From the human T2T-CHM13v2.0 reference genome, Homo sapiens, in NCBI RefSeq assembly GCF_009914755.1, contig NC_060928.1: a stretch of 64,000 nt of DNA. One strand, 5' to 3'. Position 1 is the first letter of the stretch. The number at the start of each line of letters is the position of its first letter. Positions 11,487 to 58,914 of this stretch are shown one piece after another. A program made the translations under genes and the position numbers. Below the pieces are notes generated by a model, which made no database searches, was not told the DNA's origin, and saw only the letters and a program-made list of their open reading frames with translations.

Positions 11487-11796
11487 CAGCCAGGAGAGGT
11501 GGCTCACGCCTGTAATTCCAACACTTTGGGAAACCAAGGCAGGAGGATCACTTGAGCCCAAGAGGTTGAGACTAGCCTGGCCAACATAGCAAAACCCCAT
11601 CTCTACCAAAAGTACAAGAATCATCCAGACAGGGTGGCCTGTGCCTGTGGTCCCAGTTACTTAGGAGGCTGAGCGGGGAGAATCACCTAAGCCTGTGGAG
11701 GTTGAGGCTACAGTAAGCCATGATCACACCACTGCTCAATCGTGATAAAGCTTGAGCAACAGAGTGAAACCCTGTCTCAAAAAATAAACAAATGAA
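11487..11796 (+). mobile_element. Alu (AluJ-like)
   Basis: cagccaggagaggtggctcacgcctgtaat...ccctgtctcaaaaaata. Confidence 0.95.
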
Positions 11797-12561
11797 ACAA
11801 GATTTAGGGTTATTTGGTTAAAAAAAAAAACAGGAAAAAATCCTTGTTCATTTATTACTTTCAGTATCTGGGTAATGAGAGCAGTTTCACCAGTAATATT
11901 TACATGAGAGCACAATCAGAGGTAATATTAACGTTTATATGGGCACCAAATTGTGGAATAACCCAAAAGGAGATATGTAATTTCATTAGTACATCTCTCC
12001 CTGATCCTCATCCAAGCGGAATTCGTTGGATCCTCATTTGTTTATACTGTATCATTTTATCTCTTAACATATTGCATAGTAATCATTTCAAATCCTTGCT
12101 AGCCACTTACTTGTTTTGTAACCATAGGAAAAGTACTTAACATTTCTGTGCCACCATTTTCTCATCTGTACAATGGGAATAACAATAAAGTTATATCACA
12201 GAGTTGTTAGGATGTCTTCATGTTTGATAAATTAACCACTGATTATGTTTGTGTCTCTCTTCTGCACAAAACATTTAAGAAGAAAAGGAATTCAGAAGAA
12301 TCAAACAAGACTCACCAAGCAGTTAAATACCTAGAAGTTAATCATATCTTATTATAGAGAGATAAATTCAAAAATTCCAGCCCTAGTGACATTTTAACAG
12401 GGCCTTGATGATACATGCTAAGATATGCATAAAGGACAATATAATAACAATCAAAGATTTTCTTCCTGAACTGCTCTTCAACCTATGTTTATTTCCTTTG
12501 GCCCTTGGCCATCTTGTTTCATTCTCTTGCCTCTCCTAATGAATTTTTCATCTTGATTCAC

Positions 12562-13287
12562 TTTTGAACTGTTTTTTAGTTGTTAATGTTCTATTTCTTT
12601 TCCAAACCTTTCAGTAGCTTGCTGCTTCCTGAAACAGTGTTTCCTGATTTATATTCCTTTGGCATTGACCCAGATCTCCTTCCCTTCAGTGCCTCCCACC
12701 AACTACTGTGCACCTCCTCTTGCCATGTATGACCCTGACGGGCATGAATCACCTCTCTCCCTGCCTAAACCAGAAAGGGCTGGACAAGGAGCTAGCCAAT
12801 ATGTAAACCTATGTCAACCAGGATAGGGAGGTGAAATGCAAAATTTAAAAGAGTCATTTTATAACATTATGAGATTGGGGATAATTACCCACCCCTGCAA
12901 ATATTCTTTGATTTTAAAAAGGGTCAGGGGGAAGGAATATAAACGTGGATAGACCTTACAGTTTTCAAATGTTTGAAGACACAACTAAGAATTTTGACAA
13001 TTCCAGCCCCTTGTGAGAATTTGAAAAGCAGGAGTGTCTTACATCTGATATTCTTGTACAGTGAAAACAGCAGGGACATAAGAACCTGGCATAAGAACCT
13101 GTATGTCAGTCAGGGTCATACATGGCAAGAGGAGGTGCACAGTAGTTGGTGGGAGGCACTGAAGGGAAGGAGATCTGGGTCAATGCCAAAGGAATGTAAA
13201 TTAGGAGACACTGTTTCAGGAAGCAGCAAGCTACTGAAAGGTTTGGAAAAGAAATGGAATATTAACAAACTAAAAAACTGTTCAAAA
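12562..13287. repeat. Long inverted repeat: arms 12562-12739 and 13109-13287, 369-bp spacer
   Basis: Manual reverse-complement alignment: 6 mismatches and 1 indel in ~178 bp; inner 87 bp identical. Confidence 0.97.
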
Positions 13288-13937
13288 CAGTTCAGACATA
13301 GGTCAATTTCAGGTTCTATCACTAAGTAGCATATGACTGTGACTTTGACTGAGACCTGCTACAACCTCTCATCTGTAAAATATATTTAATAATATCAACC
13401 TTACAGGAATGTTGTAAAGATTAAAGATAATATAGACCAATTGCTCAATAAAGATGACTTGAGTAAATGAGTGCTGAGAGTGCCCTGGAATTGCAAGAAA
13501 AGTCCCCAAAAGGGTGGAATCGAAGGAGCAGCTATCAGGATGGGAGAGATTAGGGAAGGAGAGGTTTGGAGAGTCAACTGCATTTCTTTGGCTTATTCAT
13601 GTAAGGTAACTGGTATGGACTGGATAACCTTTTGTTTAAAAAGAATCCTGAAACCAGTGTATGACCAGCTGACAAGATACTTCCTTTTCTTTCAGATTAG
13701 TACCTCTACAAATTCTTATTGTAATGCAAGCGAGTAAACTCAAGAGAGAATATGTGAAAATGCAAAAGGAAAACCAACCTCAGCCAACCCCCAGCCATCT
13801 AATGGCCCTGTGAGAACTTCAGCACAAAGAGAATAAATCACATTTGTTCCCACTGCACACAAAGATTGATGGTAAAAAGAATCCTACCACAGAACTCATT
13901 TATATTATAGAAGAAACTGTAATGTCAAAACTCATCC

Positions 13938-14232
13938 TGGGGCAAAGCACAGTAATCCAAGCACTTTAGGAGGCCGAGGTGGTAGGATCAGTTGAGCCCA
14001 AGAGTTCAAGACCAGCCTGGGCAACATGGTGAAACCCCGTCTCTACAAAAAAAAAATACAAAAAATTAGCCGGACATGGTGAAGTGCACCTGTAGTCTCA
14101 GCTACACAGGAGGCTTGGGTGGGAGGATCACCTAAGCCTGGGAAGTTAAGGCTGCGGTGAGCCATGATCACCCCACTGCAGTCCAGCCTGGGCAACAGAA
14201 TAAGAGTCTGCCTCAAAAAAATAAAAATAAAT
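13938..14232 (+). mobile_element. Alu (AluJ-like)
   Basis: gtaatccaagcactttaggaggccgagg...gcctcaaaaaaataaaaataaata. Confidence 0.92.
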
Positions 14233-14380
14233 AACTTTCATCTGAAGTCTGAAAGTAGATATCATTTTGTGTTTAACATAGAGAGAGGTACTGAATAGAA
14301 AACAAAGTTGTTCTGCTTTAGAAATGGGACTAAAATTTGGGGATTGGGGGGTAAAACAAAAGAGGAGAAGACTTGGAAGC

Positions 14381-14787
14381 TGTTATGGGCTGAATTGTGT
14401 GTCTCCCAAAATTCATAGATTGAAGCCTTAACCTCCAGAATCTCATAATGTGACTATAATTTGAGATAGGGTCTTGAAAGAGGTAATTAAGCTTAAATGA
14501 GGTCACTTAAATGAGGGTGGCCCTAATCCAATCTGATTATGTCCTTGTAAGAAGAGATTAGGACACACAGACCCTAGGGATGTGTGTGCACAGTGGAAGG
14601 GCCAGGTGAGGGTGCAGAAAAAGGGCAGCCACTTGCAAGCCAAAGAGAGAGGCCTCAGGAGAAATCGAACCTGCCTACACCTTGATCTTCGACTCTAGTT
14701 CCAGAACTGTAAGAAAATATGTTTCTGTTGTTTCACAGAATACACCCAGTCTGCGTCCTTTGGTGTAGCAGCTCTAGCAGACTAATA
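14381..14787 (+). mobile_element. MaLR LTR (MLT1B-like)
   Basis: tgttatgggctgaattgtgtg...gcagctctagcagactaatac. Confidence 0.85.
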
Positions 14788-58004: not shown

Positions 58005-58266
58005 AACAGGAGGAGGAGGGGGAAAAGGGGAAAGACGAGGATAAAGAGAAAAAGCAGCAGGAAGAGGAGGTGAGGGGAGAAGGAACAAAAGAAAGAGAGT
58101 CAAGGGTGATGTCATGCCTATAGTCCCAGCTACTCAGGAGACTGAGGCAAGAAGATCCTGTGAGCCCAGGAGGTCAAGGCTTCAGTGAGCTATGACTGCA
58201 CCACTGCATTCCAACCTCAGAAACAGAGCGAGACCATGTCTCAAAAAAAAAAAAAAAAAAAAAAAA
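58005..58266 (+). mobile_element. GA-rich low-complexity tract followed by an Alu right monomer (58105-58266)
   Basis: ggaggaggagggggaaaagggg...; tagtcccagctactcaggag...A-tail. Confidence 0.85.

Positions 58267-58609: not shown

Positions 58610-58914
<305 letters not shown>

What the first reader, a model, noticed from the sequence alone, without database searches (positions are those of the whole stretch)
12562..13287. Non-TE ~180-bp-arm inverted repeat whose mismatches are G-U compatible on the + strand
Seen: arms 12562-12739 and 13109-13287 are reverse complements with only 6 mismatches and one bulge (13269). Five mismatches are transitions and all five give G-U/U-G pairs in a + strand RNA (12588G:13260T, 12592T:13256G, 12641T:13207G, 12646G:13202T, 12652T:13196G); on the - strand they would all be A-C. 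The sixth is a T:T near the outer end. I recognise no transposon family in the arms. Inference: a + strand transcript would fold into a near-continuous ~178-bp duplex, long enough for ADAR, Dicer, PKR or MDA5, ~25 kb upstream of a cytokine gene. The 5/5 strand bias (about 1/16 by chance for either strand) hints at selection for pairing or at hairpin-biased repair, but is weak evidence alone.
Basis: partly seen in the sequence, partly recalled or inferred. Interest (0 to 1): 0.8.

Follow-up and report, generated by a model that had tools for sequence, protein, structure and literature searches.

The report
Single-copy inverted duplication upstream of SPP1
A 178-base stretch of human DNA and its reverse-complement copy lie 369 bases apart in the empty region before the SPP1 gene; the repeat is real and not a transposon, but nothing shows that it is transcribed or has a function.

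Summary
The arms are 12562-12739 and 13109-13287, with a 369-nt spacer. They differ by six mismatches and one 1-nt indel. Five mismatches are transitions, and all five are G:T on the + strand. As RNA the + strand folds at -435 kcal/mol and the - strand at -401.

It does not look like a transposon. In the whole T2T assembly the arms match only each other, and the spacer and left flank match only themselves. A 28-mer of the arm with up to 3 mismatches occurs twice, once in each arm. No target-site duplication flanks the unit. The repeat ends abruptly.

Best reading: a locus-specific inverted duplication of primate age (3.4% arm divergence), made in one step by a replication or repair template switch.

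The 5/5 G-U pattern has a two-sided p of 0.0625. Each wobble site changes about 1.6% of the stem energy, so selection for pairing is implausible. If the pattern is real, polymerase G·T misincorporation during copying explains it better.

Transcription, RNA editing and primate orthologues could not be examined. At 178 bp the stem is below the 300-bp MDA5 class. Interest is low to moderate.

The parts
12562..12739 (.). Left arm, 178 nt, pyrimidine-rich on the + strand
   Evidence: Alignment to the reverse complement of the right arm: 172 of 179 columns identical. Its only other match in the assembly is the right arm.
12740..13108 (.). Spacer (loop), 369 nt, not palindromic
   Evidence: Its only match in the assembly at E<=10 is itself. 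Its two halves show no inverted similarity: 177 of 500 shuffles score as well.
13109..13287 (.). Right arm, 179 nt, purine-rich on the + strand; carries the extra base at 13269
12653..12739 (.). Inner 87 nt of the left arm, pairing without any mismatch with 13109-13195
   Evidence: The last difference is at 12652:13196. P that all 7 differences fall in the outer 91 of 178 nt is 0.009 one-sided. A permutation test on the longest perfect run gives P = 0.066.
12554..12561 (.). 8-nt word TGATTCAC directly before the left arm; repeated with one mismatch (TGAATCAC) at 12745-12752. Possibly a short direct duplication left by the copying event.
   Evidence: Best flanking direct repeat in the scan. A repeat this good turned up in 335 of 3000 random placements with the same slack, so it is weak evidence.
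12745..12752 (.). Second copy of the 8-nt word, just after the left arm and its 6-nt extension
13077..13101 (.). Perfect 13-nt tandem duplication (1.9 copies), ending 7 nt (13102-13108) before the inner edge of the right arm
   Evidence: Tandem Repeats Finder, score 50
13274..13294 (.). 10-nt tandem repeat (2.1 copies, 90% matches) lying across the outer edge of the right arm
   Evidence: Tandem Repeats Finder, score 35

Best explanation
This is a locus-specific inverted duplication, not a mobile element and not a pair of interspersed repeats. One segment of about 180 bp was copied in reverse complement to a place about 370 bp away. The most likely route is a single template switch during DNA replication or break repair: the growing strand leaves its template, copies the nearby sequence backwards, then returns.

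The arm divergence of 3.4% (95% interval 1.2-7.3%) puts the event, or the last homogenisation of the arms, in the primate lineage. The locus has probably drifted since then without function. It is intergenic, and the long spacer should keep the DNA stable.

Either strand, if transcribed, would fold into a stem of about 178 bp. The + strand version is more stable because all five transition differences are wobble pairs there.

A sub-claim, which I put at about 0.3: some or all of the differences were made during the copying itself. [quoted passage not shown] Errors made while a nascent + strand copied the other arm would show as G:T on the + strand and would cluster in one part of the copied tract.

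Shown: the anatomy, the uniqueness in the genome, the sharp ends and the fold energies. Inferred: the mechanism, the age, the neutrality and which arm is the copy.
For: 1. The arms pair exactly as described.

2. The sequence is unique in the 3.1-Gb assembly.
- The arm matches 2 places, which are the two arms (E up to 10).
- The spacer matches 1 place, and the left flank 12216-12561 matches 1 place.
- With a 1701-nt query, 41 of 44 matches were elsewhere in the genome. All 41 fell in window 12101-12214 (36) or 13365-13437 (5). None fell in the repeat unit. The same search therefore does find old interspersed repeats at 72-95% identity.
- A 28-mer of the arm with up to 3 mismatches gives 2 places, against 0 for the reversed control.

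3. No direct repeat of 6-15 nt with at most 1 mismatch flanks the whole unit within the scanned slack.

4. The ends are sharp. Beyond the arms the flanks show no inverted similarity, and 444 of 500 shuffles score as well.

5. Template switching is described as creating reverse-complement copies of nearby sequence in one event. Events in which the return point precedes the departure point look like one large insertion (passages of PMC7954356; PMC10710096). An 8-nt direct repeat with 7 of 8 identical flanks the left arm, and short tandem duplications sit at both edges of the right arm.

6. For the sub-claim: G-T is called the most frequently misincorporated mismatch (passage of PMC13315743), and BIR/MMBIR synthesis is described as error-prone (passage of PMC4352052). 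All 7 differences lie in the outer 91 nt.

7. There is no Rfam match in the unit at E<=1. There is no Pfam match below E = 0.1 in the 4 of 10 stop-free frames that I scanned.
Against: - No orthologue from another primate could be examined. The ancestral state, the date and the copied arm are all untested.
- The genome search is word-based and states that a missing match does not prove rarity. An ancient low-copy repeat family could be missed. No Dfam or RepeatMasker library was available.
- The 8-nt flanking repeat is as good or better in 335 of 3000 random placements. The junction hints also disagree on which arm is the copy: the flanking repeat points to the left arm, the tandem duplications to the right arm.
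- I saw no microhomology at the junctions (reading).
- A copied tract of about 180 nt and a jump of 370-720 nt are larger than the short-range events surveyed in the papers read.
- The clustering is marginal. P is 0.009-0.018 if framed as an end run and 0.066 for the longest run anywhere. It was noticed after looking.
- Seven errors in 91 nt would require a very low-fidelity polymerase.
- Neutrality is a default assumption, not a result.
Confidence: 0.65

Rival explanations
1. The inverted repeat is older, and arm-to-arm gene conversion keeps the arms alike. The perfect inner 87 bp would be the latest conversion tract, and the outer 91 bp (6.6% different) would show the true age.
For: All 7 differences lie in the outer half. 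The inner half has 0 differences in 87 nt, with a 95% upper bound of 3.4%. Arm-to-arm conversion is established for large human palindromes (my own knowledge, no call).
Against: - The arms are only 178 bp, close to the minimum length for efficient mammalian recombination (my own knowledge).
- Similarity stops abruptly at the outer ends instead of fading.
- The clustering is only marginally significant.
Confidence: 0.12
2. The locus makes a + strand hairpin RNA that is used (as an ADAR or Dicer substrate, or a PKR ligand), and selection keeps the stem paired. Only wobble-compatible changes would then survive.
For: - 5 of 5 transitions are G:U on the + strand, or 6 of 6 if the weak 6-nt extension is counted.
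- The + strand fold is 34 kcal/mol better than the - strand fold.
- The 87-bp perfect run and the 369-nt loop resemble edited non-repetitive dsRNAs, which are described as longer, with smaller loops and more than 30 contiguous pairs (passage of PMC11838218).
Against: - Two-sided p is 0.0625.
- There is no annotated gene here (table supplied with the finding) and no Rfam family.
- Each site is worth about 7 of 435 kcal/mol, too little for selection to act on.
- Long, highly paired dsRNAs are reported to be mostly intergenic and unedited, probably untranscribed (PMC11838218).
- Over 99% of predicted dsRNAs have low conservation scores (same paper).
- There is a T:T mismatch and a bulge as well.
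Confidence: 0.06
3. The unit is a non-autonomous DNA transposon, or a remnant of one, with long terminal inverted repeats. It would belong to a family too old or too rare for the search to find.
For: The architecture is right for one: two long inverted ends around a non-coding core in a 726-bp unit. The genome search can miss diverged low-copy families, as the tool's own caveat says.
Against: - There is no other copy of the arms or the spacer, and no near match to a 28-mer. By my own binomial estimate, not a call, this bounds a family at 80% identity to fewer than about 20 copies.
- No target-site duplication flanks the unit.
- The arms are 96% identical. Human DNA transposons stopped moving roughly 37 million years ago or earlier (recalled, no call), so their two ends should differ more.
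Confidence: 0.07
4. The repeat is an assembly or sequencing fold-back artefact in this one assembly.
For: Only one assembly could be examined. Fold-back chimeras do occur in long-read data (my own knowledge).
Against: Artefactual fold-backs are perfect and have no spacer (my own knowledge). This repeat has a unique 369-nt spacer and 7 differences between the arms.
Confidence: 0.02

Closest known systems
Template-switch mutations (four-point model; Loytynoja and Goldman; Walker et al. 2021, PMC7954356; Monttinen et al. 2023, PMC10710096)
   Same: These events make a reverse-complement copy of nearby sequence in one step and so create a hairpin-capable repeat where none existed. Events whose return point precedes the departure point look like one insertion (passages).
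   Different: The copied tract (about 180 nt) and the jump (370-720 nt) are larger than in those short-range surveys, which as far as I read searched about +/-100 nt around mutation clusters.
Non-repetitive predicted dsRNAs of the human genome (dsRNAscan catalogue, PMC11838218)
   Same: It is an intramolecular inverted repeat outside interspersed repeats, intergenic, with no editing known to me. The catalogue lists 497,429 non-repetitive predictions (4,597 edited plus 492,832 unedited) among 5,134,754 (Table 1).
   Different: This one is much longer and tighter than the typical member. The median unedited non-repetitive stem is 75 bp with 14 contiguous pairs. Here the stem is 178 bp with an 87-bp perfect run. 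I could not check whether the locus is already listed, because bioRxiv supplements are closed.
Inverted Alu pairs and other repeat-derived long dsRNAs (ADAR1/MDA5 substrates; PMC12695637, PMC7006430)
   Same: Two inverted copies a few hundred bases apart would pair within one transcript.
   Different: The arms are not interspersed repeats. The locus lies in no annotated transcript, and the stem is shorter than the 300-bp class. Immunogenic dsRNAs were 90% Alu and 8% other repeats, and were enriched in mRNAs.
Miniature inverted-repeat transposable elements and non-autonomous DNA transposons
   Same: Inverted ends around a short non-coding core.
   Different: It is single-copy, has no target-site duplication, and its arms are too alike for the age of human DNA transposons (the age is recalled).

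Membership tests
DNA transposon / MITE with terminal inverted repeats | Many dispersed copies in the genome | tested here: not met
   The arm matches only the two arms. The spacer matches only itself. A 28-mer with up to 3 mismatches gives 2 places, control 0. Caveat: the search is word-based.
DNA transposon / MITE with terminal inverted repeats | Target-site duplication flanking the whole element | tested here: not met
   No direct repeat of 6-15 nt with at most 1 mismatch, with the start scanned over 12556-12568 and the end over 13281-13293. No TA or TTAA at the ends (reading).
DNA transposon / MITE with terminal inverted repeats | Match to a curated consensus (Dfam/Repbase) | not testable with these tools
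   No transposon library is on hand.
Inverted pair of interspersed repeats (IR-Alu type) | Each arm is a member of a multi-copy family | tested here: not met
   In one search, 0 of the 41 matches elsewhere in the genome fall inside the unit.
Template-switch inverted duplication (four-point model) | Reverse-complement copy of sequence lying nearby, with sharp ends | tested here: met
   (the flanks show no inverted similarity; 444 of 500 shuffles score as well).
Template-switch inverted duplication (four-point model) | Ancestral or outgroup sequence lacks one arm, and the change is explained by a single event | not testable with these tools
   No other primate genome is held.
Template-switch inverted duplication (four-point model) | Junction footprints (short direct duplication or microhomology) | tested here: inconclusive
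   An 8-nt repeat with 7 of 8 identical flanks the left arm, but 335 of 3000 random placements do as well. Tandem duplications lie at both edges of the right arm. I saw no microhomology.
Hairpin-RNA / endo-siRNA / ADAR-substrate locus | A long intramolecular stem is predicted | tested here: met
   -435 kcal/mol, z = -34. The - strand also folds, at -401 kcal/mol.
Hairpin-RNA / endo-siRNA / ADAR-substrate locus | Transcribed, with small RNAs or A-to-I clusters from the arms | not testable with these tools
   No expression data. The supplied RefSeq table has no gene here.
Hairpin-RNA / endo-siRNA / ADAR-substrate locus | Evolutionary support for pairing (covariation, wobble-only changes) | tested here: inconclusive
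   5 of 5 transitions are G:U on the + strand, p = 0.0625. There is only one sequence, so no covariation test was possible.
MDA5-type long, highly paired dsRNA (over 300 bp and over 96% paired, as defined in PMC11838218 and PMC7006430) | Stem longer than 300 bp | tested here: not met
   The stem is 178 bp. Definitions from passages.

The most novel reading that the evidence does not exclude
The hairpin exists in vivo as a + strand RNA, and the five wobble sites are A-to-G changes at adenosines preceded by U or A, which is the ADAR neighbour preference. They would have been written into the DNA of both arms. The locus would then be a young, primate-born hairpin gene whose editing history is fossilised in the genome.

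The hint behind this: the + strand G at the five sites is preceded by T, T, A, T, T, while 5' T occurs at 19% of the 105 candidate adenosines. P for at least 4 of 5 is 0.0056. This was found post hoc among several contexts tried, and it is valid only if G is the derived base at all five sites.

A less exotic version of the same pattern is the WA-to-WG error signature of polymerase eta on a nascent + strand. That motif is recalled, not taken from a call.
Probability: 0.04. Interest if true: 0.8.

Novelty: new member of a known kind. Interest (0 to 1): 0.3.

Why it matters
If the reading is right, the locus is a clean, datable example of how one replication error creates a long hairpin-capable sequence from ordinary DNA. 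Such sequences are the raw material from which hairpin-RNA genes are thought to arise.

It is unusually large for a non-repeat inverted duplication. The strand-coherent G:T pattern could show which strand was being synthesised and how accurate the polymerase was, and primate T2T genomes can test that directly.

For immunity or SPP1 regulation it matters only if the region is transcribed, and nothing here shows that.

Tried and rejected
- Rfam at E<=1 over 11500-14500: 8 matches, none inside the repeat. Seven lie in the two flanking stretches that I take to be Alu (11500-11780 and 13995-14216), and one snoR64 match (14206-14287, E = 0.81) runs past the second.
- Coding potential: 10 stop-free frames of at least 50 aa overlap the region. 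I scanned 4 of the 10 against Pfam. There were 0 matches except one at E = 0.17, below the cut-off. I rejected a coding origin.
- Palindromy of the spacer and fading similarity beyond the arms: none found (the permissive blastn did not extend past 12562-13287 either).
- Target-site duplication around the whole unit: none.
- L1-type retrocopy origin of the left arm: considered because of the flanking 8-nt repeat. Rejected because there is no poly(A) tail beyond four A that are also in the source, and the site is not a TTTT/AA-like nick site (reading; the motif is recalled).
- CpG decay as the source of the transitions: none of the five sites is in a CpG context in either arm.
- I did not sample the genome for a base rate of similar repeats. 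At most 2 Mb could be fetched, too little for a rare class, so I relied on catalogue numbers from passages.
- I did not run a second near-match pattern test on the spacer.
- Supplements of the bioRxiv dsRNAscan paper, which might list this locus, are closed. I did not open the supplements of PMC7006430. That paper covers RefSeq transcripts only, so an intergenic locus would not be listed.

Full report
**1. Observation**

The arms are 12562-12739 (178 nt) and 13109-13287 (179 nt), separated by 369 nt.

- The alignment has 172 identical positions in 179 columns.
- The differences are a T:T mismatch at 12570:13279, one extra base at 13269 and five transitions.
- On the + strand all five transitions are G:T or T:G: 12588:13260, 12592:13256, 12641:13207, 12646:13202 and 12652:13196.
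- None of the five is in a CpG context in either arm.
- All seven differences lie in the outer 91 nt. The inner 87 bp (12653-12739 with 13109-13195) pair perfectly.
- Six further bases (12740-12745 against 13103-13108) match at 4 of 6. They add one G:A and one more G:T. I treat this extension as uncertain.

**2. Chance and folding**

| Molecule | + strand (kcal/mol) | - strand (kcal/mol) |
|---|---|---|
| RNA | -435.0 | -401.2 |
| DNA | -246.2 | -233.1 |

For the + strand RNA, 20 shuffles average -190 with sd 7, and 0 of 20 fold as well. For the - strand RNA, 0 of 20 shuffles fold as well. Both strands therefore make the long stem. The + strand is better by 34 kcal/mol as RNA because its five transitions are wobble pairs. 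Among 16 inverted pairs of at least 60 nt within 5 kb in the whole window, this is the longest and the only one at 90% or more. The next best is 89% over 74 nt.

**3. Is it a transposon or a pair of repeats?**

The whole T2T assembly that holds the window could be searched.

- The arm matches two places at E up to 10, and they are the two arms.
- The spacer matches only itself, and the left flank 12216-12561 matches only itself.
- A 1701-nt query (12100-13800) gave 44 matches: itself, the two arm-to-arm matches and 41 elsewhere. All 41 lie in window 12101-12214 (36) or 13365-13437 (5), at 72-95% identity. None lies in the repeat unit.
- From memory of their core motif, I take those two multi-copy stretches to be MIR elements. 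They show that the search can find an old, diverged family.
- A 28-mer from the arm with up to three mismatches occurs twice in 3.1 Gb, once in each arm. The reversed control occurs 0 times. By my own binomial estimate, a family at 80% identity would have to number fewer than about 20 copies to escape this test.
- No direct repeat of 6-15 nt with at most one mismatch flanks the whole unit.
- The similarity stops abruptly. The 200 nt outside the arms show no inverted similarity (444 of 500 shuffles score as well). The two halves of the spacer show none either (177 of 500).
- Rfam gives nothing inside the unit at E<=1. Four of the ten stop-free frames give no Pfam match below E = 0.1.

Caveats: the genome search is word-based and says itself that a missing match does not prove rarity. 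No Dfam library is available here.

**4. What it most likely is**

This is a single-locus inverted duplication. Six substitutions in 178 nt give 3.4% divergence (Poisson 95% interval 1.2-7.3%). From recalled values, that is about the human-orangutan level and below the human-macaque level. The copy, or the last homogenisation, would then date to the primate lineage, after human DNA transposons are thought to have stopped moving (recalled).

The known process that makes such a structure in one step is template switching in replication or break repair. The passages I read describe the following.

- The nascent strand copies nearby sequence in reverse complement and creates inverted repeats where none existed.
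- There is a class in which the return point precedes the departure point, so the event looks like one large insertion (PMC7954356).
- Such events have created thousands of hairpins in primates (PMC10710096).
- Inverted repeats and template switching are also discussed for human-chimpanzee microinversions (PMC8755829).

Possible footprints at this locus:

- The 8-nt word before the left arm (12554-12561) recurs with one mismatch just after it (12745-12752). This is what a return 8 nt upstream of the departure point would leave. However, a repeat this good appears in 335 of 3000 random placements with the same slack.
- A perfect 13-nt tandem duplication (13077-13101) and a 10-nt tandem repeat (13274-13294) sit at the two edges of the right arm.

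These hints disagree on which arm is the copy, and I leave that open. The tract (about 180 nt) and the jump (370-720 nt) are larger than the short-range events in those surveys.

**5. The G-U bias**

Five of five has a binomial two-sided p of 0.0625, or 6 of 6 if the doubtful extension is counted.

- **Selection for pairing is unlikely.** The five sites together change 34 of 435 kcal/mol, about 1.6% each. The stem also carries a T:T mismatch and a bulge.
- **Hairpin-directed mismatch repair does not predict that G:T is kept.** This is my own knowledge.
- **A mutational reading fits better, if the bias is real at all.** During the copying, the nascent arm is paired with the other arm of the same strand, exactly as in the + strand hairpin. 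Polymerase errors made then would appear as mispairs in that hairpin. G-T is described as the most frequently misincorporated mismatch (passage of PMC13315743). BIR/MMBIR-type synthesis is described as error-prone, with reduced fidelity and processivity (passage of PMC4352052).
- **This reading also accounts for the clustering.** All 7 differences fall in 91 of 178 nt: P = 0.009 one-sided and 0.018 two-sided. As the longest perfect run anywhere, P is only 0.066. It also fits the indel, which lies in a short T/A run (TT in the left arm against AAA in the right).
- **Weaknesses.** Seven errors in 91 nt is a very high rate, and both patterns were noticed after looking. I give this sub-claim about 0.3. 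The alternatives are ordinary drift plus chance, or drift plus a conversion tract over the inner half.

**6. A further post hoc pattern**

Suppose the G of each wobble pair is the derived base, so that the change is A to G on the + strand: two in the left arm and three in the right. The 5' neighbours of those five sites are T, T, A, T, T. Among the 105 candidate adenosines of both arms, 19% have a 5' T.

- P(at least 4 of 5 with 5' T) = 0.0056.
- P(5 of 5 with T or A) = 0.051.

From memory, this is both the ADAR neighbour preference and the WA motif of polymerase eta errors. Several contexts and both polarities were inspected, and the polarity is unknown. It is a lead for the orthologue test and nothing more.

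**7. Function**

No tool here gives expression, small-RNA or editing data. The RefSeq table supplied with the finding shows no gene between the upstream pseudogene and SPP1, whose start lies 24.9 kb downstream. The catalogues I read in passages set the context.

- dsRNAscan predicts 5,134,754 human dsRNAs, of which 497,429 are non-repetitive. Their median stem is 75 bp when unedited. 31,017 predictions are over 96% paired, and 2,018 are also over 300 bp. Of that long, highly paired class, 88% are intergenic and mostly unedited, probably for lack of transcription (PMC11838218).
- Long near-perfect duplexes are depleted from transcripts and weakly expressed (PMC7006430).
- Human immunogenic dsRNAs are 90% inverted Alu and 8% other repeats, and they sit in mature mRNAs (PMC12695637).
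- LIRBase keeps only arms over 400 nt, so it cannot list this repeat (PMC8728187).

This locus is therefore an unusually long and tight member of a catalogued class. It is below the 300-bp MDA5 class. If it were ever transcribed, its length would be ample for ADAR, Dicer or PKR (my own knowledge).

**8. Verdict**

- Best explanation: a primate-age template-switch inverted duplication without demonstrated function (0.65).
- Rivals: an older repeat maintained by conversion (0.12), an unrecognised transposon (0.07), a functional + strand hairpin RNA (0.06) and an assembly artefact (0.02).
- Novelty: a new member of a known kind.
- Interest: 0.3.
- Decisive step: aligning primate orthologues. That single analysis would date the event, identify the copied arm, polarise the mismatches and separate the mutational, neutral and RNA-selection readings.

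Noticed in passing
window 12101-12214 and 13365-13437: Two multi-copy stretches in the same orientation bracket the repeat at a distance. They have 36 and 5 matches elsewhere in the genome, at 72-95% identity. They share a core word (direct repeat D8). I take them to be MIR elements from memory of the core motif.
   Followed up: partly
window 11512-11796 and 13952-14231: Two stretches in direct orientation, 74% identical over 290 columns, lie about 0.8 kb and 0.7 kb outside the repeat. I take them to be Alu; the name is mine, from weak Rfam matches to SRP RNA and to microRNA families that I recall as Alu-derived.
   Followed up: no
window 12363-12401 and 12989-13028: Weak direct similarity of about 39 nt between the left flank and the right part of the spacer. 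Only 2 of 500 shuffles score as well, in one of four comparisons tried (also D6). It could be a trace of an older duplication or chance.
   Followed up: partly
window 13077-13101 and 13274-13294: Short tandem duplications sit at both edges of the right arm: a perfect 13-nt unit and a 10-nt unit at 90%. The second makes the first bases of the right flank repeat the end of the arm.
   Followed up: partly
window 58117-58263 and 58611-58757: The second-longest inverted pair of the window: 147 nt, 71% complementary, 347 nt apart. It lies just before the annotated lncRNA LOC124906434.
   Followed up: no
window 12943-13329 (+): A stop-free frame of 128 codons runs from the spacer through the right arm, and several frames of 50-80 codons lie in the arms. 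No Pfam match. Probably a side effect of the purine/pyrimidine-skewed composition of the arms.
   Followed up: yes
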